Origin: a virus
Lineage: Duplodnaviria; Heunggongvirae; Uroviricota; Caudoviricetes
Reading direction: 5' to 3' (one strand)
DNA: 37,329 nucleotides
IMG/VR virus record: IMGVR_UViG_2850808358_000008
Span: 1-37,329 of that record
A model generated the notes under the pieces. The model had not been told where the DNA came from. It saw only the letters and a list, made by a program, of their open reading frames with translations, and did no database searches. Shown in pieces: positions 1 through 27,943 of this stretch. The position numbers and the translations under genes were made by a program. Positions within the stretch are counted from its first letter, which is position 1; the number at the start of each line of letters is the position of its first letter.

Positions 1-1005
1 TTAATCCCCCGTGGACACTGCGTGGACACTTACGCCACCTTTCAGCGGATTAAGGGCCACCGCATCCTGCAGGTAATCCGGTGCAAAATGCGCATATGCC
101 ATTGTTTGCTGAATGGTTGCGTGGCCAAGAATCTTCTGAAGCGCAATAATGTTTCCTCCGTTCATCACAAAATGGCTGGCGAACGTATGCCGCAGCACAT
201 GTGCAGCCTGGCCTTTTGGTAAATCGGGCTTAACTCTTTTCAGCGCCAAGCAGAATTCCCGGTACTTCACCTCAAACAAGCCGCCTGTTTCTCTGGTTTT
301 GATCGCCTCACAAACTGCCTGCGAAATTGGCACTGTTCTCTTTCGGCCATTTTTGGTTTCAAGAAACGTTACACGGTTATGAACTATCTGTTCACCACGA
401 AGCTTACAAGCTTCACTCCAGCGCGCCCCTGTGCTTAAACACAAAAGCGCAACACGCCAGTAGTCGCCCTCCAATGTATCGAGCAATAGCGCTACTTCCT
501 TCCGGGACAGGAAAGCCATTTCTCGCGGGGATACATAAAGAATAGAAATCCCCCTTACCGGATGCTCTGCATCCCAGAGGCCTATTTTCTTCAGTACGGT
601 AAACATTCCGGATAACCGATTCATATATCTGTTAGCAGATGACGGTTTCAATCCATCAGCTATCTTTTGAGAACGCCACGCGATAATTTTCAGCTTATCA
701 AGATCCACAGCCTGCATATCAGCGCCAAGCTCATTGATTATGTTGCGCAGTTGTTTTCGGTCTTCTTCCGCCTTACGCCTGTGCTGGCCGTGATACATCC
801 ACCACAACTCAAGCAAATCATTTAGCGTTCGACGATCACGGTAGCCCTGTATATATTCCCGCTTTTCAGCGTTCGCCATGATGTAGCGTTCAGTGGCCAC
901 CGCTACCGATTTTTTGTCAAATACCTTACGCACGCGCTTTCCCTTGCGTCCGTTCGGCCTGATGTCCAGCAAATAACGACCATCTTCGAGCTTCTTAATC
1001 GACAT
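1..1005 (-). CDS. int: Tyrosine integrase, P2 Int-like
   Basis: 339-aa ORF with conserved tyrosine-recombinase C-terminal motifs (HVLRHTFASHF, MAYAHF) and an N-terminus resembling P2 Int by recollection. ATG at 1005 follows a GGAGGG RBS; the ORF track begins at a TTG at 1020. Confidence 0.9.
   Translation of the reverse strand: MSIKKLEDGRYLLDIRPNGRKGKRVRKVFDKKSVAVATERYIMANAEKREYIQGYRDRRTLNDLLELWWMYHGQHRRKAEEDRKQLRNIINELGADMQAVDLDKLKIIAWRSQKIADGLKPSSANRYMNRLSGMFTVLKKIGLWDAEHPVRGISILYVSPREMAFLSRKEVALLLDTLEGDYWRVALLCLSTGARWSEACKLRGEQIVHNRVTFLETKNGRKRTVPISQAVCEAIKTRETGGLFEVKYREFCLALKRVKPDLPKGQAAHVLRHTFASHFVMNGGNIIALQKILGHATIQQTMAYAHFAPDYLQDAVALNPLKGGVSVHAVSTGD
11..28. repeat. attL core (gtggacactgcgtggaca), lying inside the 3' end of int
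   Basis: The 18-mer recurs at 36149-36166 with one mismatch (gtggtcactgcgtggaca). The left copy encodes the integrase C-terminus, as is typical for att cores. Confidence 0.65.
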
Positions 1006-1101
1006 CGCGAAGCCCTCCAATGAACCGCTCTACAATTTCTCCAGCCTCTTTCCAGCAATAATCAGACCAGACAAAAAGCAGGTCTAACCAGTTTTCTGGC
1101 C

Positions 1102-1421
1102 TCAGCGGGGTAATTTTTGTTTTGTTTCGGTTGAACTCTGATCGCCCTCCAAACTGGAGAAGCCATCAAGAGAGAGAGCCGGAGAAATTTGCCCAACCTC
1201 CGGCATCGTTTCATCTGTTGATAACCAATAAGCATACTTCTTAAATTTTGGGTGTTTCGTAACCTTAAGTAAGGCCCCCTCTGTTACTTGCTTCCCCCTC
1301 ACCTCATAGTTAGTTACCGTCCATAAGGCAGCCCAACACAATCCGCAAACTCCTGGCGGGTCATACCTTCTGCTTCACGAATCAGGCGAAATTTTTCACC
1401 CATGCTTGACAAAGATGCCAT
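1102..1421 (-). CDS. C: P2 C-type immunity repressor, interrupted by an apparent 1-bp deletion near 1320-1322
   Basis: The N-terminal HTH part (MASLSSMGEKFRLIREAEGMTRQEFADCVGLPYG) stops at 1316-1314, and the C-terminal part (TVTNYEVRGK...KFKKYAYWLSTDETMPEVGQISPALS) continues in the neighbouring frame to 1102. Both halves resemble P2 C by recollection. Confidence 0.65.
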
Positions 1422-1483
1422 ATCGGGCATATCCTCCATTACAAACATGCCACATCGGGCACTCACACATAAAAAAGCTCAAA

Positions 1484-1510
1484 TAAGCCTATATAAGCCA
1501 TTTTGAGCCA
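1484..1510. promoter_or_regulatory. Three 10-bp-phased direct repeats (TAAGCCT, TAAGCCA, TGAGCCA) in the C/cox divergent control region; candidate operator
   Basis: Repeats start at 1484, 1494 and 1504, between divergent C and cox. P2-type C and Cox proteins are known to bind direct repeats in the Pe/Pc region. Confidence 0.35.
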
Positions 1511-1537
1511 TTCGAACGAATTAAGGAGATTACCACA

Positions 1538-1825
1538 ATGAGCGAATCAGAGCTTGAGGGGTTCATTCAGGTAGCACCATATCCACTTGAAGCGGTGCCA
1601 TATCAACTATTCGCCAAGATGATTGGCCGCAAAGAATCAACCGTCAGAACCATGATTGACGCTGCAAAGCTACCAACGATTGACTTTGTAAAACCAGGTT
1701 CAGCAAAGACGCGAGCATCAGAAAACTGGGTATATCTGCCAGCATTTAACGCAGGTATGCGCAAAGCGTTTTTTGATCAGCCGAAAGAGCGCCGCGACGC
1801 ATGGTTGCTCTGGCTGGGTCTTTGA
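1538..1825 (+). CDS. cox: Cox-like excisionase / early transcriptional regulator
   Basis: 95-aa ORF divergent from C. Internal motif (WVYLPAFNAG ... AWLLWLGL) resembles P2 Cox by recollection (WVYLPAWNNG ... GWLMWLGL). RBS AAGGAG lies upstream. Confidence 0.8.
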   Translation: MSESELEGFIQVAPYPLEAVPYQLFAKMIGRKESTVRTMIDAAKLPTIDFVKPGSAKTRASENWVYLPAFNAGMRKAFFDQPKERRDAWLLWLGL

Positions 1826-1836
1826 CGAGGATTTTT

Positions 1837-2178
1837 ATGAGACAACAACGTAATTCACGCTTCCGCAACGGCGCAGAACGCCATGCTAACCGTTTCGCTA
1901 CCAGTGCATCACGTAGCAACTCTCGCTACAGCCTGAGCGAAACACACGCAACGCCGGATGGCTACCCCGTAAAACAAATCGGCGAGCATACCTGGCTGAT
2001 TGAGAAAGCCGGAATCGCGGTCCACAAATGCCCGCGAAATCCGTTTACCGGAAACCGCATTTTTGCGCTGAGCAGCGGAGACAATCAGTTCGGACAGGAT
2101 TTCACATTGTACGAAGCACTACGCACGGTTGATCGCCTGCTGCGTGGACAGAGTTTTATTAAACAGGCTGATTTATAA
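1837..2178 (+). CDS. Hypothetical early protein
   Basis: ORF in the early operon after cox. The ATG at 1837 was chosen because the longer ORF start (1801) overlaps the end of cox. Confidence 0.4.
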   Translation: MRQQRNSRFRNGAERHANRFATSASRSNSRYSLSETHATPDGYPVKQIGEHTWLIEKAGIAVHKCPRNPFTGNRIFALSSGDNQFGQDFTLYEALRTVDRLLRGQSFIKQADL

Positions 2179-2189
2179 CAGGTGCTTTA

Positions 2190-2476
2190 TGACTAAAGAA
2201 CATACTCAGGGTGTATTTATCCGCTTTATTGATTTTCGCGGTGAACTGTTATTACGCGCATCCGCTATTGATGGAGTGGCTCCGGCGGGGAGAAACGGAA
2301 CCGCTGAAGCCACTTACGTTTATCTGAACGGCACTCGACTGCTTGTGGAACTTCCGTACCAGAGCGTACGAGAAATCATTAGCGAAGCTGAAAAGGCACG
2401 TCAGGTTAATGGCGATAAACCCTATATCGAAATTATTTGTATGGATTCAGAAGCAGAAATCCAGAAGGCAGATTAA
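2190..2476 (+). CDS. Hypothetical early protein
   Basis: 95-aa ORF, co-oriented and tightly packed in the early operon. Confidence 0.45.
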
Positions 2477-2486
2477 AGGGCGTGCG

Positions 2487-2729
2487 ATGGACAAAGAATA
2501 TAAAGCTCTCGTCAATAAAGCACTTGAGCGTTTTCATTTTCGCTTAAACACATCAGGGCTTCACGCCGAACACGCAGCCCATGATTCATTAGCAAGGGCA
2601 ATCAGAAGCCTTTATGACGTGGCCTTTTACGCTGACGATTTGGATGCAATTAACGAACTTTCCGAACTCGTCTGCGCTGCAGAATGCGGGGATCGCATTG
2701 AACCATATAAACTGGGGAATATCGCATGA
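2487..2729 (+). CDS. Hypothetical early protein
   Basis: 80-aa ORF in the early operon. Confidence 0.45.
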   Translation: MDKEYKALVNKALERFHFRLNTSGLHAEHAAHDSLARAIRSLYDVAFYADDLDAINELSELVCAAECGDRIEPYKLGNIA

Positions 2730-2839
2730 GTATATTTATGTCATGGATTGTTCTGATTATTTCGGTGGCCTGCGCAATCGGGATTATGCGAATTATTCAT
2801 TCAGTGAAAAAGATTGAGCGTTTTTTCTCTGACGAATAA
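2726..2839 (+). CDS. Small hydrophobic peptide (37 aa), possibly a membrane protein
   Basis: ATG overlaps the previous stop (ATGA). Product MSIFMSWIVLIISVACAIGIMRIIHSVKKIERFFSDE is mostly a single hydrophobic segment. Below the ORF-track length cutoff. Confidence 0.3.
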   Translation: MSIFMSWIVLIISVACAIGIMRIIHSVKKIERFFSDE

Positions 2840-2932
2840 CAGCACAAATAAAACACCAGATTAAATAAGAAAACGTGAAAACCATCCGAATTAGCGGAGG
2901 CATTCACACACGTAAATAATGGAGATACAAAA

Positions 2933-3343
2933 ATGAACGCAAAAGAAAAAGGCATTGTAACTGTGCTAAAAAATATATCGAAGACCGCAAACAAAGCCAT
3001 TCAGGATGCAACAAATGCAGGAATGATTGGGCCTGCCACCACAGCCATGATGATAGCAAGGGTAACCGCCGAAGCAGCCGAAATTATCGAAAAACAGGAT
3101 GCTGAACTAACGGTTCTCAGAACACAACCAGTCACCGGACTGGATTTGTCTAACACCGGACGCCTTATTTACACAATTGGCTCGGAGCCACAGCAATACA
3201 CCATTATCGCCGGATTACAGGATAAATACTTGATCACTCCTCACCCCATAAGGGAATCAGAAATTCTGACAAATCTCCGCCTGATAGAGCGCTCTCAAGT
3301 CGCATTCATTGATGGCGCGCAACGTGCCGTATTTAACGCATAG
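2933..3343 (+). CDS. Hypothetical early protein (136 aa)
   Basis: ORF preceded by GGAG; position corresponds to the B/orf80 region of P2-like early operons. Confidence 0.5.
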   Translation: MNAKEKGIVTVLKNISKTANKAIQDATNAGMIGPATTAMMIARVTAEAAEIIEKQDAELTVLRTQPVTGLDLSNTGRLIYTIGSEPQQYTIIAGLQDKYLITPHPIRESEILTNLRLIERSQVAFIDGAQRAVFNA

Positions 3344-4108: not shown

Positions 4109-4216
4109 GAAACCAGAACATGCACACACAAAAAAACCGCTTGCCATGCCTCAATCGGTCAGGTTACATTTCCGCCGCACCTCATAAAACGGGTGCCGGG
4201 ATTTCCACCCCGCTGA

Positions 4217-4420
4217 CAACTACAGCGCACAACCGCGCCAGCGGTTTTTTTGTGCGTACTGTATCGCCACGTCTTTTTCGCACACGAATTATGGTGGGGC
4301 GTACGGGGCCGACTTCGGTCGGGCCGGGTTCTGTAGTTGCCGGTTGTGGAAACCCTGTACGTCTCACCACCCCGAGTTTTCCACCTCTGGATGGTGAGTT
4401 TTCAAAACTTGCAACTACAG
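4217..4420. repeat. Noncoding early region with three copies of the 9-mer CAACTACAG (two direct, one inverted) and a UUCG-loop hairpin
   Basis: CAACTACAG at 4217-4225 and 4412-4420, its reverse complement at 4331-4339, each next to a CACAACC-like motif. GGCCGAC-ttcg-GTCGGGCC hairpin near 4300-4320. Weak hairpin plus T7 run at 4232-4250. No convincing ORF across 4109-4430. Confidence 0.4.
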
Positions 4421-8002: not shown

Positions 8003-8962
8003 ATGAAAATTTGTATCGACGACGGCTCCACCAACATCAAGCTGGCATGGACTGAGAACGGCGAACGCCGCAACGCCATCAGCCCGAACAGCTTCAAGTC
8101 GGAATGGTCTGCGCCGTTCGGTGGCTCGCAGCCTGCGAACTACATGCTTGATGGCGTGCGCTATGGTTTTGATCCGGTCAGCGATCGCTTTGTCCAGACG
8201 ACCGACACGCAATACCAGTACAGCGATGTGAATGTAATCGCCATTCACCACGCGCTGGTCAAATCAGGCATCACACCACAGGAGGTGGATGTGGTTGTCA
8301 CCCTGCCACTGAGCGAATATTTCGACACAAACGCACAGCCGGACATGGCCAACATCAACCGCAAAAAAGCGAACGTTATGCGCCCGGTGGAGTACCAGAA
8401 CGGTGAGGCATTCACTATCCGTAACGTGCGGGTTATGCCTGAATCCATTCCGGCTGGCTTTAAAGCACTGGCTGACATGAGTCCGTTTGAATCCCTGCTG
8501 ATTGTGGATTTAGGCGGAACCACGCTGGATGTGGCAAAGGTTCAGGGACAACTGGCAGGTATCAGCCAGGTGTTTTGCGATCCACACGTAGGCGTTTCTC
8601 TGATAGCCGATGCCGTACTGTCGGTGATGGCCACTAACGGTATGCGTACCAGTCACCATATCGCCAATACCATTATCGAACATCGCCGCGATGAAGCCTG
8701 GCTGCGCCAGCACATCCACAATGACGCGCATTACGCCAGCCTGATGACGGTTATTCGTGAAAAGGAAGAAACACTGAAACAACGCGTGATCCGCGCGCTG
8801 GCGGGTTTTTCGGGTTACGGGCGGGTGATGGTTGTCGGTGGCGGGGCGGAGATTGTGGCACCCGCTATCCGCGAAGCCTGCGGAGTTAATGCGACTTTCA
8901 TCGCGGACGGGGTGCCACAGTTTGCTCTGGTTAATGGGCTGTACGCAATGGACAAGGAGTAA
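8003..8962 (+). CDS. parM: Actin-like ATPase of the ParM/StbA family
   Basis: 319-aa ORF. N-terminus MKICIDDGSTNIKLAW and motifs DVNV(I/V)A(I/V)HHAL, MPESIPAG, DLGGTTLD and GGGAE match plasmid R1 ParM as recalled. Confidence 0.8.
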   Translation: MKICIDDGSTNIKLAWTENGERRNAISPNSFKSEWSAPFGGSQPANYMLDGVRYGFDPVSDRFVQTTDTQYQYSDVNVIAIHHALVKSGITPQEVDVVVTLPLSEYFDTNAQPDMANINRKKANVMRPVEYQNGEAFTIRNVRVMPESIPAGFKALADMSPFESLLIVDLGGTTLDVAKVQGQLAGISQVFCDPHVGVSLIADAVLSVMATNGMRTSHHIANTIIEHRRDEAWLRQHIHNDAHYASLMTVIREKEETLKQRVIRALAGFSGYGRVMVVGGGAEIVAPAIREACGVNATFIADGVPQFALVNGLYAMDKE

Positions 8963-8966
8963 ACCA

Positions 8967-9278
8967 ATGACGACACCAACCAGACGGATAAGTTTCTATC
9001 TGAAGCCCGCCGCCGTCAAGAACGAAGGCGAAGCATGCGCTTGGCTGGACAGCCTTACACCAGAAGCCCGCAAAAGCGGCCAACGCGTGGCTTTTCTGGC
9101 CGGGCTGGCGCTTCTGAAAATGAATCCAGCAGAGGCTTACCGACTGGCTGCATGGGCTGACGATGAGGCGTTATCGGTGACACAAACCAGGACAGAACGC
9201 CCCGTGCCACAGCCAGTACCAACCGCACAGATAACCAGTCAGATAGCAGGGAATATCCGGGCATTATTTCCTGAATGA
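8967..9278 (+). CDS. parR: ParR/StbB-like ribbon-helix-helix adaptor
   Basis: 104-aa ORF directly after parM. N-terminal RRISFYLKP and central AFLAGLAL resemble R1 ParR (RRTIAFKLNP, ALTAGLAL) as recalled. Confidence 0.55.
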   Translation: MTTPTRRISFYLKPAAVKNEGEACAWLDSLTPEARKSGQRVAFLAGLALLKMNPAEAYRLAAWADDEALSVTQTRTERPVPQPVPTAQITSQIAGNIRALFPE

Positions 9279-9338
9279 CGAATTTGACGGCTTTTAATTT
9301 TATCGGGGTGCACTGTCGCCCCGCACGAGGAAAACACG

Positions 9339-9507
9339 ATGAAAAAATACGAATACATGCTAATGAAAGAAGCACTGCGGGCTGGTCTGGCTCCCTGTCC
9401 TGTATCCGTAGAAGCTGTTGTTGGGAACACGATTTTCCGAACGCTGCGAAATCGCGTATCCGTGAAGATGGTTCACCAACCACCCAAATCTACCAGCATG
9501 ATCTATC
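9339..9507 (+). pseudogene. 5' fragment of a 175-aa hypothetical gene interrupted by the IS600-like element
   Basis: The frame beginning at ATG 9339 runs into the IS left end at 9508, and rejoins in frame after the IS at 10771 once the 3-bp duplication is removed. Confidence 0.6.
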
Positions 9508-9571
9508 TGAGGTAGCCTGAGTTTAACGGACACTCCTTCCTGAAATAGAATGGCATCAGAAGGAGCTAATA

Positions 9572-9874
9572 ATGAGCAGAAAAACCCAACGTTACTCTAA
9601 AGAGTTCAAAGCCGAAGCTGTCAGAACGGTTCTTGAAAATCAACTTTCGATCAGTGAAGGCGCTTCCCGATTATCCCTTCCTGAAGGCACTTTAGGACAA
9701 TGGGTTACCGCCGCCAGAAAAGGGCTCGGTACTCCTGGTTCCCGCACGGTGGCTGAACTGGAATCTGAAATTCTGCAACTGCGTAAGGCGTTAAATGAAG
9801 CTCGCCTTGAGCGAGATATATTAAAAAAAGCAACAGCGTATTTTGCACAGGAGTCGCTGAAAAATACGCGTTAA
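9572..9874 (+). CDS. IS3-family transposase OrfA (HTH / leucine zipper)
   Basis: 100-aa ORF beginning MSRKTQRYSKEFKAEAV. A7 slippery run near 9817-9826 for the usual -1 frameshift into orfB. Confidence 0.85.
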   Translation: MSRKTQRYSKEFKAEAVRTVLENQLSISEGASRLSLPEGTLGQWVTAARKGLGTPGSRTVAELESEILQLRKALNEARLERDILKKATAYFAQESLKNTR

Positions 9875-9909
9875 TCGAACAATGGCGACAACAATTTCCC
9901 ATTGAAGCG

Positions 9910-10727
9910 ATGTGTCAGGTATTTGGTGTATCCAGGAGCGGTTATTACAACTGGGTACAGCATGAACCCTCAGACAGAAAACAAAGTGATGAGCGGCTAA
10001 AACTGGAGATTAAGGTGGCACATATCCGCACTCGCGAAACATATGGAACCCGGCGGCTCCAGACGGAGCTGGCAGAGAATGGCATCATCGTTGGTCGTGA
10101 CCGACTGGCACGTCTTCGTAAGGAGCTAAGGCTACGCTGTAAGCAGAAACGCAAGTTCAGAGCGACTACGAACCCGAACCACAATCTGCCAGTTGCGCCA
10201 AATCTGCTGAACCAGACGTTCGCTCCTACAGCACCAAATCAGGTCTGGGTGGCGGACCTGACGTATGTTGCCACACAGGAGGGATGGTTGTACCTCGCTG
10301 GCATCAAAGATGTTTATACGTGCGAAATTGTCGGCTACGCCATGGGAGAGCGCATGACAAAAGAGCTGACAGGTAAAGCCCTGTTTATGGCGCTCAGGAG
10401 CCAGCGCCCACCTGCCGGGCTAATCCACCACTCCGATCGAGGTTCACAGTACTGCGCATACGATTACCGGGTCATACAGGAGCAGTCTGGTCTGAAAACA
10501 TCAATGTCGCGTAAAGGTAACTGTTACGACAACGCTCCGATGGAAAGCTTCTGGGGAACGCTGAAAAATGAGAGCCTGAGCCACTATCGTTTTAAGAGCC
10601 GGAATGAGGCCATCTCAGTAATACGGGAATACATTGAGATTTTCTACAATCGTCAGCGTCGTCACTCTCGTCTGGGAATATCTCCCCGGCAGCCTTCAGG
10701 GAAAAATATCATCAGATGGCTGCTTAA
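9910..10727 (+). CDS. IS3-family transposase OrfB (DDE), with an apparent 1-bp deletion in a GGG run at 10674-10676
   Basis: DDE-type transposase ORF. The plausible C-terminus (GNISPAAFREKYHQMAA, stop 10725-10727) is in the neighbouring frame; the frame as sequenced instead runs past the IS end to 10812. Confidence 0.75.
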
Positions 10728-10770
10728 AAAAAGAACAAATGGTAGTGTCCGCTATTGCCAGTACACCTCA

Positions 10771-11129
10771 ATCTGCCGCTGCCCGAGGCTATCAAACTTA
10801 TGCGTTCGCTGAAATTTGCGATTTGGATGCAGACACAAATCAACAAAGCGGTGCAAAACACCTTCGTTAAGAGACTAATACCGGAGCTTGCTGCCAGATG
10901 TGCAAAATGTACCAGACCCGCACTTCAATTTGATCTGTCATTGATTCAACAAGCTACGGAGGCAGAACTGTACCGCCTGTCACCTATCCGTGATGCTCAC
11001 ACGGAAGCATCAGAAATGTTCCGGCTCATGTTTCAATTTAATTTTGCCGTTCGACGCACACGCGTTCAGGTCAATCGCATGATGCAGGAGCAGGAAGAGT
11101 TAACACAGTACAAAGGGGGCAGCCAGTGA
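10771..11129 (+). pseudogene. 3' fragment of the IS-interrupted 175-aa hypothetical gene
   Basis: In-frame continuation of 9339-9507 after removing the IS and one copy of the ATC duplication. Confidence 0.6.
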
Positions 11130-11365
11130 GTAATTCAGCACGACTACAGCTTGGTTTTTCACCGCTATCAAAAACCATCGTATTGGCAAAAATGCGTGAC
11201 TTAGGAGACGGAACAAAACGCCGCGTAGGAAATGATCGCGGTCGCGATGTAACCAACGAGGCCGCTCAACTCGTTTGGCATCTAGTCATGGCAGAAGGCG
11301 GTGAAATTAATTGGGAGCTGGATGATGGTTCTCGTATGATTTTGAGGGCCGAGAAGAGTAAATAG
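11126..11365 (+). CDS. Hypothetical protein (79 aa)
   Basis: GTG start overlaps the upstream stop (GTGA), suggesting translational coupling. No recognisable family. Confidence 0.35.
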   Translation: MSNSARLQLGFSPLSKTIVLAKMRDLGDGTKRRVGNDRGRDVTNEAAQLVWHLVMAEGGEINWELDDGSRMILRAEKSK

Positions 11366-11379
11366 CTCAAGGGGGATTA

Positions 11380-11565
11380 ATGCTAAATGATGATGAAGAA
11401 GAGCTGCTTATGCAGGAATGGTCGCTCGGTGATTATGATAATGGTGAAAATGGGTGCCCGCATTGTGGCCGTTATCGTTTATGTATCTGCCAGAATGGAA
11501 AACACAGATGTGAAAAGTGCAATTGGTCTCCGGAACTTAATGACTACGTGCCGATCGAGTGGTAG
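11380..11565 (+). CDS. Small cysteine-rich, zinc-ribbon-like protein (61 aa)
   Basis: AAGGGGG RBS. Seven cysteines arranged CPHCG...CIC...C..C, with an acidic N-terminus. Confidence 0.45.
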   Translation: MLNDDEEELLMQEWSLGDYDNGENGCPHCGRYRLCICQNGKHRCEKCNWSPELNDYVPIEW

Positions 11566-11605
11566 AGGTAAGTCACACTAGGTGTTTTTTAGTTGATTTT
11601 ATAAA

Positions 11606-23370: not shown

Positions 23371-25480
23371 ATGAGTACCACAACACGTAAATTTAAAACC
23401 GTTATCACCGATACGGGTGCCAAAAAATTAGCTCAGGCAGCCGCGCCAGATGGTAAGCCTGTCCGCCTGACTCATATGGCCGTGGGCGACGGTGGCGGCA
23501 CGCTGCCCACACCAGACAGTAAGCAGACCCGTCTGGTGCATGAGGTGTGGCGACACACTGTTAATCGCGTCATCCTGGACGCAACACATCAGAACCGCAT
23601 TATTGCGGAGCTGGTTATTCCTCCTGAAACGGGCGGATTCTGGATCCGGGAAATTGGTGTATTTGATGAGCACGGCGATTTAATCGCGGTGGGCAATACT
23701 GCCGAAAGTTACAAACCAGCCGTTGCCGAGGGGTCCGGACGTGCACAAACATTTCGCACCATTCTGACCGTATCCAGCACTGCCACCGTGGCGCTTACCG
23801 TGGATAACACCATGGTGATGGCCACAGTGGATTACGTGGATGACAAACTGAAAGAGCCTGAACAGTCACGACGTCACCCGGATGCCTCGCTGACCGCAAA
23901 AGGCTTTGTTCAACTCAGTAGCGCCACCAACAGCACGTCTGAAGCACTGGCCGCAACGCCGAAAGCGGTCAAGGCAGCCTATGACCTTGCTAACGGGAAA
24001 TATACCGCACAGGACGCCACTACAGCGCGGAAAGGACTTGTCCAGCTCAGTAGCGCCACCAACAGCGATTCAGAAACGCTGGCGGCAACACCAATGGCGG
24101 TAAAGGCAGCATATGACCTTGCTAACGGGAAATATACTGCGCAGGATGCCACCACAGCGCGGAAAGGCCTTGTCCAGCTCAGTAGCGCCACCAACAGCAC
24201 GTCTGAAACGCTGGCGGCAACACCAAAGTCGGTAAAGGCAGCCTATGACCTTGCTAACGGGAAATATACCGCTCAGGACGCTACGACAGCACAAAAAGGA
24301 ATTGTCCAGCTCAGTAGTGCAACCAACAGCGCATCTGAAACGCTTGCTGCGACACCGAAAGCTGTGAAAGCAGCTAATGACAATGCGAATGGTCGGGTAC
24401 CTTCTGCCCGTAAGGTGAATGGTAAGGCGCTTTCAGCGGATATAACACTGACACCGAAAGATATTGGTACGCTTAACTCAACAACAATGTCATTCAGAGG
24501 TGGTGCTGGTTGGTTCAAATTAGCAACGGTAACCATGCCACAGGCGAGTTCTGTTGTTTCAATTACGTTGATTGGTGGCGCTGGATATAACGTCGGTTCA
24601 CCTCAACAGGCAGGTATATCTGAAATTGTTTTGCGTGCAGGTAATGGTAATCCGAAGGGGATTACTGGTGCTTTATGGCAGCGCACATCGGCAGGGTTTA
24701 CAAATTTTGCCTGGGTCAATACATCTGGTGATACTTACGATATTTACGTTGCAATCGGAAATTATGCGACTGGTGTAAATATTCAATGGGATTATACCAG
24801 TAATGCCAGCGTAACGATTCATCCGTCACCAGCATATTCTGCTAATAAGCCGGAAGGGTTAACGGACGGTACAGTTTATTCACTCTATACGCCATCAGAG
24901 CAGTTTTATCCGCCTGGCGCACCAATCCCGTGGCCATCGGATACCGTTCCGTCTGGTTATGCCCTGATGCAGGGGCAGACTTTTGACAAATCTGCCTACC
25001 CGAAACTTGCAGTCGCTTATCCGTCAGGCGTGATCCCTGATATGCGTGGCTGGACGATTAAGGGCAAACCTGCCAGTGGTCGGGCCGTATTGTCTCAGGA
25101 ACAGGACGGCATTAAATCGCACACCCACAGCGCCAGCGCATCCAGTACGGATTTGGGGACGAAAACCACATCGTCGTTTGATTACGGAACTAAATCCACA
25201 AATAACACCGGAGCACATACACACAACTTTGCTTACAACAATACTTCAGCATACGCAGAAACTCCCGGTACCGGTGGTGGAATGCATGCAACTAACACAA
25301 GCAAGACAGCAAGTAATCGCGTATTAAGCGCAGGAGCTCATACTCACACAGTAGCAATAGGTGCGCATACACATACGCTCGCTATTGGTTCGCACACACA
25401 CCATTACCATTGCCGCTTATGGCAACGCGGAAAACACCGTAAAAAACATCGCATTTAACTATATTGTGAGGCTTGCATAA
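23371..25480 (+). CDS. H: Tail fibre protein, P2 gpH-like, with an apparent frame disruption in a (CA)n run near 25393-25402
   Basis: Large ORF after I with an N-terminus like P2 H, internal tandem repeats and a His/Thr-rich AHTHT stretch. The expected C-terminus ([26 protein letters not shown], stop 25478-25480 overlapping the G start) is in the +1 frame relative to the ORF as sequenced, which ends at 25458. Confidence 0.8.
23899..24380 (+). repeat. About 3.6 tandem copies of a 132-bp (44-aa) repeat inside H
   Basis: Units start at 23899, 24031, 24163 and 24295 and encode KG(F/L/I)VQLSSATNS(T/D/A)SE(A/T)LAATPK(A/S)[21 protein letters not shown] with a few substitutions. Confidence 0.85.
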
Positions 25481-26079
25481 TGGCATTCAGAATGAGTGAA
25501 CAACCACGAACCATAAAAATTTATAATCTGCTGGTCGGAACCAATGAATTTATTGGTGAAGGTGATGCATACATTCCACCTCATACAGGTCTGCCTGCAA
25601 ATAGTACTGATATTGCTCCGCCAGATATTCCAGCTGGCTTCGTGGCTGTTTTCAACAGTGATGGGGCGTCCTGGCATCTCGTTGAAGATCATCGTGGTAA
25701 AACGGTTTATGACGTGGCTTCCGGCGACGCGTTATTTATTTCTGAACTCGGTCCGTTACCGGAAAATGTTACCTGGTTGTCGCCGGGAGGGGAATATCAG
25801 AAGTGGAACGGCACAGCCTGGGTGAAGGATACGGAAGCAGAAAAACTGTTCCGGATCCGGGAGGCAGAAGAAACAAAAAACAGCCTGATGCAGGTAGCCA
25901 GTGAGCATATTGCGCCACTTCAGGATGCTGTAGATCTGGAAATCGCAACGGAGGAAGAAATCTCGTTGCTGGAAGCCTGGAAGAAGTATCGAGTGCTGCT
26001 GAACCGTGTTGATACATCAAGAGCACCGGATATTGAGTGGCCAGCTTCCCCAGTGGAATCAAGGAGTAAACAAGCATAA
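25480..26079 (+). CDS. G: Tail fibre assembly chaperone, P2 gpG-like
   Basis: 199-aa ORF whose start overlaps the expected H stop (TAATG). Confidence 0.8.
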
Positions 26080-26173
26080 AGGCTTTCATTTCAAACCATT
26101 GTAGTCCAGTTTTTTGTATAGTACCCTGCTCATTTCGGATGACATGTGTGATTTGGAATTTCAGGGTACCATT

Positions 26174-27352
26174 ATGAATGTTATTTCATCATTAAAACAG
26201 CTTAACAGACAGCGAAATATTAAAACAAAAAAGATAAAGACGAAGGCCAGACTGGCATTTCTAAAAATGCGATACAGAAGGAAAACATCATTACAGCCGG
26301 ATAGTTATAAAACAGTGTGCATTTTCATGCACATGCAAGCCATTGGTGACGGCATCGTTACCTCAGGGTTTATTAAACAACTTCAAAAATCCGGTATGGT
26401 GGTATATGTGATAGCACCTTCAAGAGTATCATTCCTCTTTACTGATATTGTTGGCGTGGATGCCTTTATATCTTACGAGAAAAATAAATTTAACGAACTA
26501 AAAGCAAAGATAAAAAAACTGAATGTAGATCTTGTTGTTGACTTCTCAAATTTTGATAACACAGCGATAACCAGATTGCAAACCCTACATTTACTTAGAC
26601 CTAAACACTCTATCTGTTTTAATCATCCTGCCGTAACTATTTTTGATACAAATATAATCGATAATCGTTCCATTCACACATCTGAAAGAATGAAAAAAGT
26701 TTTATCTTTACTAAAGATAAAAAATAATAATTATGCTGCAGCGCTTAATTTTGACAACAAAATATATGAACCAGCAAATATTGTTGCAAATGAATTCAGG
26801 AAGAAAAACAAAAAATTAGTTATATTTAACCCTTATGGCTCTCAGAATAGCAGAACCTTATCTGATGAACAGATAAACAAAGTACTAGCTTACCTTAATA
26901 ACCTTAAGGGATATCACACAATAGTTTTTAATATGGGAAAACAGATTAATCACAATGGATTGGATAATGTGTCTCTATCTCCATTTTCTGATGCCGGATG
27001 TTCATTTGCATTGGTTCGCCATGCTGATTTTGTTATAACTGTAGATACTGCCATTGTACATTTAGCCAGTGCATTAAACATTAGACAATACTGTATATAT
27101 AATAACAGAATGCATGAAGGAAAATTCGAAAATAATATTGTGTGGGGGCCAAACAGCAAATTAGCGACTCAACTCACCACATCCGAACATCTAAGGTCTG
27201 AAGGGGGCGACGATATGCATAAATTCGACATAATGATCTTAATTAATGCTATCAAACAAGATTTGACAAACGATATACCGAATTACCACTCGGATTTAGG
27301 TTGTAAAAATAGATCCAGAAACCCAGAATTAGAAAGTAGCAATTCTTTATAA
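26174..27352 (+). CDS. Glycosyltransferase family 9 (LPS heptosyltransferase-like) moron
   Basis: Motifs HMQAIGDGIVTSGFI, VIFNPYGSQNSRTLSDEQ and ADFVITVDTAIVHLASALN parallel WaaC/WaaF-type GT9 signatures as recalled. Visibly AT-rich compared with flanking phage genes. Start uncertain; the ORF opens at 26114. Confidence 0.7.
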   Translation: MNVISSLKQLNRQRNIKTKKIKTKARLAFLKMRYRRKTSLQPDSYKTVCIFMHMQAIGDGIVTSGFIKQLQKSGMVVYVIAPSRVSFLFTDIVGVDAFISYEKNKFNELKAKIKKLNVDLVVDFSNFDNTAITRLQTLHLLRPKHSICFNHPAVTIFDTNIIDNRSIHTSERMKKVLSLLKIKNNNYAAALNFDNKIYEPANIVANEFRKKNKKLVIFNPYGSQNSRTLSDEQINKVLAYLNNLKGYHTIVFNMGKQINHNGLDNVSLSPFSDAGCSFALVRHADFVITVDTAIVHLASALNIRQYCIYNNRMHEGKFENNIVWGPNSKLATQLTTSEHLRSEGGDDMHKFDIMILINAIKQDLTNDIPNYHSDLGCKNRSRNPELESSNSL

Positions 27353-27448
27353 AGTAGAAACCTCAACAGTTTTATCAGGACCTACGATATATTATATAAC
27401 AACAAGCCGCCCATTACCCAATATGAGGGTATTAGCGGCAATGTAAAA

Positions 27449-27943
27449 TCAGAACAGTCCTTTAACTGAACTGGCCGCGCTGTTAAGGGATGATGTGACC
27501 TTATCTTTGAAGCCGGACAGCATATCACTGAACGATGAGGATTGCAGACGCTCCCGCAAATCCTCATCACAGCGTTCAAGGGTCAGTGAAAATTCTATCT
27601 TTTTCGCCTTACCGTAGCGATCAAACTCGGAACGGGTCGTATTCGTTTCAGTCAGTACATACATGCCGTAAATCTGCCCGACACCATCAATCAGAGGCCA
27701 GGGGCGTCCTGTATATGCCTGTGTGGTCAGCAACGAAAGCGACACTTCGCCACCTGTAATTTCAGGATAAAGCACGCCGGAAAGCACGATGCGATCATCA
27801 CCTGCGCCGATATACTGCCAGCTTGCTGAACGGTTAACGCGTTCATTTTTCACATGCCGCCAGCTTTTGTTTTGCTGTAACTGCTGATGCGGCAATGTGC
27901 GCAGCTCAAAAACAAACATGCCGTAGATCATCATCATGGCCAT
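27449..27943 (-). CDS. U: Tail protein, P2 gpU-like
   Basis: 164-aa ORF. N-terminus MMMIYGMFVFELRTLPHQQLQ...WRH resembles P2 U as recalled. Confidence 0.8.
   Translation of the reverse strand: MAMMMIYGMFVFELRTLPHQQLQQNKSWRHVKNERVNRSASWQYIGAGDDRIVLSGVLYPEITGGEVSLSLLTTQAYTGRPWPLIDGVGQIYGMYVLTETNTTRSEFDRYGKAKKIEFSLTLERCDEDLRERLQSSSFSDMLSGFKDKVTSSLNSAASSVKGLF

What the first reader, a model, noticed from the sequence alone, without database searches (positions are those of the whole stretch)
26080..27448. AT-rich GT9 glycosyltransferase moron at the Z/fun position
A heptosyltransferase-like GT9 gene with visibly lower GC than surrounding phage genes sits between G and the tail genes, where P2 carries the Z/fun exclusion gene. 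A prophage-encoded LPS-core glycosyltransferase could remodel the cell surface (lysogenic conversion) and block superinfecting phages that use LPS core as receptor.
Basis: partly seen in the sequence, partly recalled or inferred. Interest (0 to 1): 0.7.

Follow-up and report, generated by a model that had tools for sequence, protein, structure and literature searches.

The report
Prophage-borne WaaU-like LPS core glycosyltransferase
A P2-family prophage of E. coli carries, right after its tail-fibre genes, an intact AT-rich gene for an enzyme related to the one that adds the last heptose to the LPS core, and it occurs almost only in strains with the R3 core type; this suggests the phage edits its host's cell surface, but no experiment has tested that.

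Summary
An intact 392-aa ORF (26174-27352, +) lies between tail-fibre assembly gene G and tail gene U of a P88-like (Xuanwuvirus, P2-family) prophage. It is the lowest-GC stretch of the window (0.33 against 0.53). It is a real GT9 enzyme: it passes the Pfam cut-off, a confident AlphaFold model matches solved GT9 structures best, and the catalytic motifs are invariant. Its closest E. coli relative is WaaU, the outer-core HepIV transferase. A 55%-identical homolog sits in a canonical waa cluster. Others sit beside O-antigen genes or in Orbaceae LPS loci. At least five more lie directly after tail-fibre or tail-fibre-assembly genes in other Providencia-type prophages, including E217-like and Mu-like ones. 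In E. coli the gene is in 49 of 5426 complete genomes, at three or more integration sites. It stays intact in decayed prophages. 45 of the 49 hosts have the R3 core, against 25% overall and 42% of other carriers of the same phage backbone. Best reading: a cytoplasmic LPS outer-core glycosyltransferase, probably a heptosyltransferase, used for lysogenic conversion. Phage exclusion, the donor sugar and the timing of expression are inferred only. It is a new variant of a known kind, of moderate interest.

The parts
26174..27352 (+). WaaU-like GT9 glycosyltransferase gene (392 aa). It has an N-terminal basic helix (14 K/R and 0 D/E in the first 40 aa), a G58-D59 motif and a D291-T292...H296 motif.
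26080..26173 (+). 94-nt spacer between the G stop and the GT9 start. No sigma-70 promoter or intrinsic terminator is predicted. The only signal is a -10-like TATAGT at 26117-26122 with no usable -35. Read-through from the late V-W-J-I-H-G operon is therefore possible.
27353..27448 (.). Spacer between the convergent GT9 and U genes.
27406..27439 (-). Hairpin GCCGC...GCGGC, followed on the minus strand by a T-rich run. It is the terminator of the FI-U tail operon. Related prophages carry a hairpin at the same place, and the variant here resembles the one in the acetyltransferase-cargo type.
   Evidence: (z -2.7)
25480..26079 (+). G, tail fibre assembly protein (Caudo_TAP), the left boundary of the slot. 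This G type (92-99% identity) was found only in the GT9-carrying relatives among the P88-like viral contigs sampled (80 fetched, 57 with enough flank).
23371..25458 (+). H, tail fibre (tail-collar N-terminus, four Phage_fiber_2 repeats, Collar domain, His-rich tip). Its 3' end is disturbed by a 2-nt gap relative to the closest genome.
27449..27943 (-). U, tail protein (Phage_P2_GpU), the right boundary of the slot.

Best explanation
The gene encodes a cytoplasmic, membrane-peripheral GT-B enzyme of family GT9, in the WaaU branch. It most likely adds one sugar to the distal outer core of the host's lipid A-core on the inner face of the inner membrane, before MsbA export. The sugar is most likely L-glycero-D-manno-heptose, taken from the host's ADP-heptose pool. 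The preferred acceptor appears to be the R3-type core. The prophage thereby changes the LPS core of its lysogen (lysogenic conversion). The likely pay-off is altered adsorption of core-dependent phages, possibly including the prophage's own virions. Shown here: GT9 fold and motifs, WaaU relatedness, the LPS-locus context of homologs, repeated placement after tail-fibre genes in unrelated prophages, the R3 association, and retention in decayed prophages. Inferred only: donor, acceptor and linkage, expression in lysogeny, and phage exclusion.
For: Motifs. D59, R227, D291, T292 and H296 align with WaaC D13, K192, D261, T262 and H266, and are invariant in 34 family members.
WaaU relatedness. The family profile scores 118 bits against K-12 WaaU, and 23, 15 and 9 bits against WaaQ, WaaC and WaaF. 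BLASTP gives 23% identity, E 3e-17, over residues 24-339, including the basic N-terminal extension. WaaU is described as adding HepIV to GlcIII (PMC4483631).
Context of homologs. P0009 (55% identity) follows waaQ-G-P-GT4-GT8-GT8 and precedes waaA-coaD. Orbaceae homologs lie with GT9, GT8, GT2 and EptA-like genes. P0027 and a Citrobacter homolog lie between asmA and galF-like/O-antigen genes. Prophage copies follow a Caudo_TAP or tail-fibre gene in E217-like, Mu-like and other prophages.
Companion genes. Prophage copies are sometimes paired with a GT2 or with a WcaB-like acetyltransferase. A homolog of that acetyltransferase (39% identity) is the alternative cargo in the same E. coli slot.
Host association. 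45 of 49 GT9-positive E. coli genomes have R3 waaL, against 1364 of 5426 overall (OR 35, p 4e-23) and 573 of 1357 other backbone carriers (OR 15, p 1e-12). R3 waa clusters without any waaU were read directly in four hosts.
Selection. The gene is intact in 48 of 49 genomes, including prophage remnants whose neighbouring fibre, Tfa and U genes are broken. dN/dS is 0.28 between alleles. At least three integration sites were seen.
Against: There is no biochemical or phenotypic evidence. No promoter is predicted upstream and no terminator separates the gene from G, so it may be expressed mainly late in lytic growth. Even for WaaU the donor sugar is only 'putative' in the genome annotation. The family is only 23% identical to WaaU. 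The fibre tip and Tfa resemble lambda Stf/Tfa (93% DNA identity), which from my own knowledge uses OmpC, so self-exclusion through the core is not obvious. Four GT9-positive hosts are not R3, and one of them has an R1/R4-like core. The association statistics are not corrected for the relatedness of genomes, and the backbone itself is enriched in R3 hosts (44% against 19%).
Confidence: 0.6

Rival explanations
1. The enzyme has the same activity, but the gene is a late gene. It is transcribed as the last gene of the tail-fibre operon during lytic growth, and it alters newly made LPS so that progeny virions are not lost on debris, vesicles or sister cells. It would then be a receptor-masking function rather than a lysogenic-conversion function.
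For: The gene is co-oriented with Tfa and lies 53-140 nt downstream of the Tfa or fibre gene in every prophage locus examined. In the window there is no terminator after G and no recognisable promoter.
Against: The gene stays intact in prophage remnants that can no longer make virions, which argues for a benefit in the non-induced state. The P. rettgeri locus has a terminator hairpin and a TATAAT box between Tfa and the gene. From general knowledge, new LPS made in a short latent period would replace little of the surface.
Confidence: 0.2
2. The enzyme modifies the LPS core, but the selected benefit has nothing to do with phages. Candidate benefits are altered O-antigen ligation, serum or antimicrobial-peptide resistance, immune recognition of the R3 core, or protection from tailocins or protists.
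For: Retention in decayed prophages and purifying selection. Hosts come from many animal and clinical sources. Chromosomal homologs act as ordinary LPS genes.
Against: The repeated placement directly after receptor-binding genes in several unrelated phage backbones is more easily explained by a link to phage adsorption. In the sampled relatives the gene is also linked one-to-one with one Tfa type.
Confidence: 0.15
3. The enzyme glycosylates a protein, for example the Ser/Thr-rich repeats of tail fibre H, in the way the GT9-related autotransporter heptosyltransferases TibC and Aah act.
Confidence: 0.04
4. The gene is an intracellular anti-phage defence or abortive-infection gene of the kind found in P2-family variable slots, or it is silent hitch-hiking cargo with no function in E. 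coli.
For: It occupies a variable slot of a P2-family prophage. Its low GC could attract H-NS silencing (general knowledge).
Against: No PADLOC model matches. The active-site motifs are conserved and dN/dS is 0.28. It is intact in 48 of 49 genomes. The two P2 hot-spot papers searched do not mention glycosyltransferases or LPS.
Confidence: 0.05

Closest known systems
E. coli K-12 WaaU (RfaK), putative ADP-heptose:LPS heptosyltransferase IV
   Same: GT9 fold. Full-length homology: 118 bits to the family profile and 23% identity. Shared basic N-terminal extension. Shared insertion after the DT..H motif (IYNNR..NNIVWGPN here, FYPNS..HLIWSPN in WaaU). Low GC (0.31).
   Different: WaaU is a chromosomal gene of the K-12-type waa cluster. 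This gene rides on a prophage and occurs mostly in R3-core strains, which have no waaU. Identity is low, so acceptor and linkage may differ.
Inner-core heptosyltransferases WaaC, WaaF and WaaQ (GT9)
   Different: Sequence relation is very weak (9-23 bits to the family profile). They lack the N-terminal basic helix. NCBIfam equivalog cut-offs for HepI and RfaQ are missed by a wide margin.
P2 lysogenic-conversion genes fun(Z), tin and old
   Same: Non-essential cargo in a variable slot of a P2-family prophage. fun(Z) also lies after G.
   Different: fun(Z) is on the opposite strand, lies between G and FI, and blocks T5 growth (annotation note). Here the cargo is a surface-glycan enzyme, co-oriented with G and lying between G and U.
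Phage O-antigen conversion modules (GtrABC of P22 and Shigella phages, Oac of Sf6); cited from own knowledge
   Same: A prophage-encoded change of LPS that alters phage adsorption and serotype.
   Different: Those systems modify O-antigen repeat units, largely on the periplasmic face, using a three-gene Gtr set or a membrane acetyltransferase. Here a single soluble GT-B enzyme of the core-assembly type is present, with no gtrA, gtrB or gtrC.
Glycosyltransferase genes in the hypervariable tail-fibre region of the P2-like xenorhabdicin tailocin locus (PMC13280938)
   Same: Glycosyltransferase genes lie next to tail-fibre genes of a P2-type contractile tail and are proposed to give self-protection by changing LPS.
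   Different: Different organism, a tailocin rather than a phage, and the families reported there are a mannosyltransferase and an unspecified glycosyltransferase. Relatedness to this family was not tested.
Accessory, mobile-element-encoded enzyme of R3 core assembly in E. coli O157:H7 (Kaniuk et al. 2004, J Biol Chem 279:31237; title seen, details from memory)
   Same: A precedent that the R3 core is completed or modified by an enzyme encoded outside the waa locus, on a mobile element.
   Different: It is plasmid-borne, not phage-borne. As I recall it is a GlcNAc transferase acting on the inner core, not a GT9 of the WaaU type.

Membership tests
Glycosyltransferase family 9 (Pfam PF01075 / CAZy GT9) | Match to the family HMM above the curated threshold | tested here: met
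   26.7 bits against a cut-off of 22, E 4e-6, C-terminal half only
Glycosyltransferase family 9 (Pfam PF01075 / CAZy GT9) | GT-B two-Rossmann fold closest to solved GT9 enzymes | tested here: met
Glycosyltransferase family 9 (Pfam PF01075 / CAZy GT9) | Catalytic Asp in the N-terminal G-D motif, and the D-T/S..H donor-binding motif | tested here: met
   D59, D291, T292 and H296 align with WaaC D13, D261, T262 and H266 and are invariant in 34 sequences. The roles of the WaaC residues are from my own knowledge of the literature.
Glycosyltransferase family 9 (Pfam PF01075 / CAZy GT9) | Uses ADP-heptose as donor | not testable with these tools
   Needs an enzyme assay or mass spectrometry of the core
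WaaU-type outer-core (HepIV) transferases | Closer to WaaU than to any other GT9 paralogue, over the full length | tested here: met
   Profile scores are 118 bits (WaaU) against 23, 15 and 9 bits (WaaQ, WaaC, WaaF). BLASTP E 3e-17 over residues 24-339.
WaaU-type outer-core (HepIV) transferases | Encoded in the waa core-biosynthesis cluster | tested here: not met
   This copy is in a prophage. A 55%-identical homolog does occupy the distal position of a waaQ-type operon next to waaA.
WaaU-type outer-core (HepIV) transferases | Adds heptose to the terminal glucose of the outer core | not testable with these tools
   Activity is inferred from homology only. WaaU's role is as stated in PMC4483631.
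WaaU-type outer-core (HepIV) transferases | Curated equivalog model | tested here: inconclusive
   NCBIfam returned no WaaU-specific match for WaaU itself. WaaU and this protein both give only weak HepI and RfaQ hits far below the cut-offs.
Moron / lysogenic-conversion gene | Composition unlike the phage backbone, and present or absent among otherwise near-identical phages | tested here: met
   GC 0.33 against 0.53. Among 57 P88-like contigs with enough flank (80 fetched, U 99-100% identical), the slot holds GT9 in 5, an acetyltransferase in 6, an invertase module in most and nothing in about 5.
Moron / lysogenic-conversion gene | Own promoter and terminator, with expression from the repressed prophage | tested here: inconclusive
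   No promoter or terminator is predicted between G and the gene. The downstream hairpin belongs to the U operon. No expression data are available.
P2 Fun(Z)-type exclusion | Homology to Fun(Z) and a block of T5 growth | not tested
   Only the position was compared. The protein is a GT9 enzyme, so homology is not expected.
Autotransporter heptosyltransferases (TibC/Aah) | TibC-like fold with an iron-binding cysteine cluster, encoded next to its protein substrate | tested here: not met
Known anti-phage defence systems (PADLOC-DB 2.0) | Match to any defence-protein model | tested here: not met
   0 families at E <= 1
GtrABC O-antigen glucosylation cassette | Three genes: gtrA flippase, gtrB GT2 bactoprenol transferase and gtrC membrane transferase | tested here: not met
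   The slot holds a single soluble GT-B gene and no membrane-protein genes.

The most novel reading that the evidence does not exclude
The WaaU-like GT9 gene is one member of a small set of receptor-editing genes (GT9, a WcaB-like acetyltransferase, a GT2). These genes travel with tail-fibre/Tfa modules across unrelated temperate myoviruses: P2-like in E. coli, and E217-like and Mu-like-tail prophages in Providencia. On this reading each gene is matched to a particular LPS core type (here R3), so that receptor-binding protein and receptor-modifying enzyme form a linked 'key and lock-changer' cassette. The cassette would create a previously undescribed R3 core glycoform in about 1% of E. coli.
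Probability: 0.3. Interest if true: 0.65.

Novelty: new variant of a known kind. Interest (0 to 1): 0.5.

Why it matters
Prophage-driven LPS conversion is well known for O-antigen. It has not been described in the literature I could search for the core oligosaccharide through a cytoplasmic WaaU-type GT9 enzyme. The only mention found is that GT9 annotations have been listed in Pseudomonas prophages, without any functional study.

If the enzyme is active, it would define an extra R3 core glycoform in lineages that include STEC, ETEC and carbapenem-resistant clinical isolates. That would bear on phage-therapy host range, on core-directed antibodies and possibly on O-antigen ligation.

The near-exclusive association with one core type gives a directly testable prediction about acceptor specificity. 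The recurrent placement after tail-fibre genes in several phage lineages suggests a general rule for where to look for receptor-modifying genes.

Tried and rejected
- PADLOC scan: no hit.
- Sequence search of the PDB, single sequence: only chance hits. With the family profile: only a 45-residue WaaC motif at E 0.07.
- The afdb50 fold library was not available.
- Sigma-70 promoter and terminator scan, plus my own relaxed scan of 25850-26180: nothing convincing upstream of the gene.
- Rfam and tRNA scans: nothing inside 26080-27448.
- The closest non-E. coli homolog contig (P0003, 76% identity) has uninformative flanks. DNA homology to the window starts 3 nt before the ATG and ends 68 nt before the stop, so no shared regulatory region could be defined.
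- The GT2 next to the P. rettgeri copy and the GT2 next to the Orbus copy are related only generically (30% identity in the GT2 domain). A jointly transferred GT9+GT2 pair is therefore not supported.
- The idea that low GC marks recent import from a specific donor was dropped. The family is 10-15 points below its flanks in every Enterobacterales host and matches the genome only in Orbaceae.
- The neighbour-joining tree intermixes phage and chromosomal copies, but it has no support values, so I use it only qualitatively.
- The frameshifted T, FI, D and A genes in the window do not show that the prophage is defective. All are 1-nt deletions at C-runs relative to every relative, which looks like sequencing error.
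- Literature searches for a described prophage WaaU-like or GT9 core-modifying gene found none.

Full report
**1. What is in the sequence**

The window is an E. coli prophage of the P2 family. A 2.6-kb stretch around the finding is 99.9% identical to the chromosome of strain OkiPb01714, and it covers at least 80% of the query in 46 complete genomes. The RefSeq annotation of that genome gives this order:
- replication genes, ParM, portal and terminase, capsid genes, lysis genes, baseplate genes;
- H (tail fibre), then G (tail fibre assembly), then 'glycosyltransferase family 9 protein', all on one strand;
- U, T, E, FII and FI on the other strand;
- D and ogr.

The tail half of the window matches Xuanwuvirus phages (P88, 500465-2, PhiR44_2) at 94-96%. 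The element is therefore P88-like, not P2 itself.

In the window the coordinates are H 23371-25458 (+), G 25480-26079 (+), the ORF of the finding, and U 27449-27943 (-). The mechanical ORF starts at a TTG at 26114. The ATG at 26174 gives the 392-aa product that RefSeq calls.

The ORF has GC 0.332 and GC3 0.298, against 0.534 for the rest of the window. It is the single lowest-GC 1179-nt stretch of the 37 kb, with z = -5.4.

**2. Is it a GT9 enzyme?**

Yes. The evidence is as follows.
- Pfam PF01075 is passed: 26.7 bits against a cut-off of 22.
- The sequence signal is otherwise weak. There is no PDB hit by sequence, and NCBIfam gives only sub-threshold RfaQ and HepI hits.
- I therefore collected 34 homolog clusters, aligned them and predicted the structure. 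The model has mean pLDDT 90.1 and pTM 0.86.
- Foldseek against the PDB puts GT9 structures on top: 3tov, WaaC (6dfe, 2h1h) and WaaF (1psw), with E from 5e-14 to 3e-11.
- In an alignment with the four E. coli GT9 paralogues, D59, R227, D291, T292 and H296 fall on WaaC D13, K192, D261, T262 and H266. These positions are invariant across the family.

The protein looks catalytically competent.

**3. Which GT9?**

The family profile scores 118 bits (E 1e-37) against K-12 WaaU. It scores 23, 15 and 9 bits against WaaQ, WaaC and WaaF. Pairwise BLASTP to WaaU gives 23% identity, E 3e-17, over residues 24-339.

Two features are shared with WaaU and absent from WaaC, WaaF and WaaQ:
- a strongly basic N-terminal helix, with 14 K/R and no D/E in the first 40 residues;
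- an insertion after the DT..H motif.

WaaU is described as the heptosyltransferase that adds the fourth heptose to the third glucose of the K-12 outer core (PMC4483631). The genome annotation still calls it 'putative'.

**4. Where do relatives live?**

Chromosomal LPS loci:
- P0009 (55% identity) lies in a canonical enterobacterial waa cluster, after a GT9 (WaaQ-like), GT4, a Kdo-family kinase, GT4, GT8 and GT8, and before waaA-coaD. The contig is about 73% identical to E. coli in housekeeping genes, so it is another genus.
- Orbaceae copies (Orbus, Gilliamella) lie among GT9, GT8, GT2 and EptA-like genes.
- P0027 and a Citrobacter copy lie between asmA and galF-like/O-antigen genes.

Prophages, always directly after the tail-fibre or Tfa gene and on the same strand:
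- P0011, in an E217-like myovirus prophage of Providencia stuartii, at the prophage end.
- P0016, in P. alcalifaciens, followed by a convergent hexapeptide acetyltransferase.
- P0018, in a prophage of P. rettgeri with Mu-type baseplate genes, followed by a convergent GT2, DinI and an integrase.
- P0010 and P0004, after Caudo_TAP genes.
- P0008, also in a phage contig.

A neighbour-joining tree places Orbaceae at the base and intermixes phage and chromosomal copies in Enterobacterales. It has no support values, so it is only a qualitative guide.

Low GC is a family trait. The genes range from 0.26 to 0.41 and sit 10-15 points below their flanks in every Enterobacterales host. K-12 waaU is 0.31.

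**5. The slot**

P2 fun(Z) lies after G, on the opposite strand, before FI. In P88 the slot between Tfa and U holds a second inverted fibre/Tfa pair and a DNA invertase.

I fetched 80 IMG/VR contigs whose U is 99-100% identical to the window's. I examined the 57 with enough flank:
- Most carry the invertase module.
- Five carry the GT9 gene.
- Six carry a 187-aa hexapeptide acyltransferase, WcaB/CysE/EpsC-like.
- About five carry nothing.

That acetyltransferase is 39% identical (E 5e-40) to the one that accompanies the GT9 gene in the P. alcalifaciens prophage. When the slot does not hold an inversion system, it therefore tends to hold enzymes of surface-glycan modification.

In this sample the Tfa type of the window (92-99% identity) was found only with the GT9 cargo.

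**6. Distribution and selection in E. coli**

- The gene is in 49 of 5426 complete genomes, always chromosomal. It is intact in 48 and IS-disrupted in one.
- It remains intact in prophage remnants. In strain L6-21 the fibre is cut by IS903B, Tfa has an internal stop and U is truncated. In PapRG-04-4 the portal and fibre genes are fragments.
- Two alleles 96% identical differ by 20 synonymous and 22 non-synonymous changes, giving dN/dS 0.28.
- Integration sites differ: beside raiA-bamD, yfhH-purL and flk-fabB.

**7. Association with the R3 core**

The waa clusters of four hosts were read directly: OkiPb01714, EC7518, L6-21 and NCTC9966. All are waaQ-G-P-I-Y-J-(GlcNAc transferase)-L. This is the R3 arrangement from my knowledge of the waa types, and it contains no waaU.

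The counts are:
- The R3 waaD-waaL segment occurs in 1364 of 5426 genomes, 25.1%.
- A chimeric query (GT9 gene plus 700 nt of R3 waaL) showed that 45 of the 49 GT9 genomes also carry R3 waaL. The union of 1368 equals 1364 + 4, which confirms the count. This gives OR 35, p 4e-23.
- As a control for the phage's own host range, the U-T backbone is in 1406 genomes. Its union with R3 is 2152, so 618 backbone carriers (44%) are R3.
- Excluding GT9 carriers, 573 of 1357 backbone carriers (42%) are R3. GT9 carriers against other backbone carriers give OR 15, p 1e-12.

One of the four exceptions has an R1/R4-like cluster.

These tests treat genomes as independent, which they are not. The several integration sites and the varied sources argue against a single clone.

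**8. Expression signals**

No sigma-70-like promoter and no intrinsic terminator are predicted in the 94-nt spacer after G. The only signal is a -10-like TATAGT at 26117-26122.

The hairpin at 27406-27439 is followed by a T-run on the minus strand. Counterparts sit at the same place in all relatives, so it is the terminator of the FI-U operon.

In the P. rettgeri prophage the spacer does contain a hairpin followed by a TATAAT box.

Whether the E. coli gene is expressed in lysogens, late in infection, or both cannot be decided from sequence.

**9. Interpretation**

The best-supported account is a WaaU-like outer-core glycosyltransferase that acts on lipid A-core at the cytoplasmic face and prefers an R3-type acceptor. 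The donor is probably ADP-heptose. The enzyme would give the lysogen a modified core.

The step from 'modifies core' to 'blocks superinfecting phages' is inference. It rests on two things: the recurrent linkage to receptor-binding genes, and a parallel proposal for glycosyltransferases in P2-like tailocin loci (PMC13280938).

A caution applies. The fibre tip and Tfa are 93% identical in DNA to lambda stf/tfa, whose receptor as far as I know is OmpC. The cognate phage may therefore not be the target.

The rivals are late-expressed receptor masking, a phage-unrelated benefit of core change, fibre glycosylation, and silent cargo or intracellular defence. Each is set out with evidence and refutation tests in the structured fields.

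**10. Novelty**

The gene is auto-annotated as GT9 in RefSeq and forms a PHROG of unknown function (phrog_36326). I found no paper that describes it or any prophage-borne WaaU-type core enzyme. GT9 annotations in Pseudomonas prophages have been tabulated without study.

I rate it a new variant of a known kind (prophage LPS conversion), of moderate interest. The R3 association and the cross-phage fibre linkage are the parts most worth following up.

Noticed in passing
window 28981, 32682, 33090, 33133, 33219; also 6172, 7660, 11756, 11856, 25393: The window has single-base (at 25393, two-base) deletions relative to the closest genome. The five tail-region sites (28981-33219) were also checked against two further relatives and all lie at CCC/CCCC runs. 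They split T (27950-29251 / 28957-30792), sheath FI, D, the replication gene and the 3' end of H into apparent frameshifts. The pattern looks like homopolymer sequencing error rather than prophage decay. The AT-rich GT9 gene is unaffected.
   Followed up: partly
L100, L126, L127, L131, L136, L153 (IMG/VR), about 171-734 nt downstream of the U stop: Sibling P88-like prophages carry a 187-aa WcaB/CysE/EpsC-like hexapeptide acetyltransferase in the same slot. It is 39% identical to the acetyltransferase that sits next to the GT9 homolog in a Providencia alcalifaciens prophage (L003 11167-11733). Its U-terminator hairpin resembles the GT9-type one. Any association with a core or O-antigen type was not tested.
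   Followed up: partly
E. coli genome collection: The P88-like U-T backbone itself is in 1406 of 5426 complete genomes. It is enriched in R3-core hosts (44%, against 19% of genomes without it), which hints that this phage group prefers R3 strains.
   Followed up: partly
window 25823-26021 (+): Rfam family IS009 (218 bits) matches inside the 3' half of the tail fibre assembly gene G. It is probably an Rfam family built on a conserved prophage tfa segment rather than a separate RNA gene.
   Followed up: no
window 4177-4251 and 4287-4374 (+): isrK (63.6 bits) and C4 antisense RNA (80.5 bits) lie side by side in the early/immunity region. This suggests P1/P7-style antisense control of an antirepressor in this P2-family prophage.
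   Followed up: no
window 9572-10812 (+): An IS3-family transposase (rve, HTH_21) lies in a 2.3-kb segment (about 9277-11605) that does not align with the closest genome. That genome has a DUF3800 gene between the partition genes and the portal gene.
   Followed up: no
window 8003-8962 (+): A ParM actin-like segregation protein gene (with a partition/stability gene next to it in relatives) lies inside an integrating prophage that also has an integrase (1-1020, -). This raises the question of a plasmid-like phase.
   Followed up: no
window 23371-25458 (H) and relatives: Tail fibre length varies widely among GT9-carrying relatives (H is 1749 nt in OkiPb01714, 2088 nt here and up to 849 aa in L128), apparently through changes in the number of Phage_fiber_2 repeats.
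   Followed up: no
window 36334-37329 (+) and L184: The last ORF of the window is 331 aa and is probably the host flk gene. The GT9-carrying prophage of O104:H21 strain 94-3024 is integrated next to flk-yfcJ-fabB, so the window's prophage may sit at the same site. Other carriers use raiA-bamD and yfhH-purL.
   Followed up: partly
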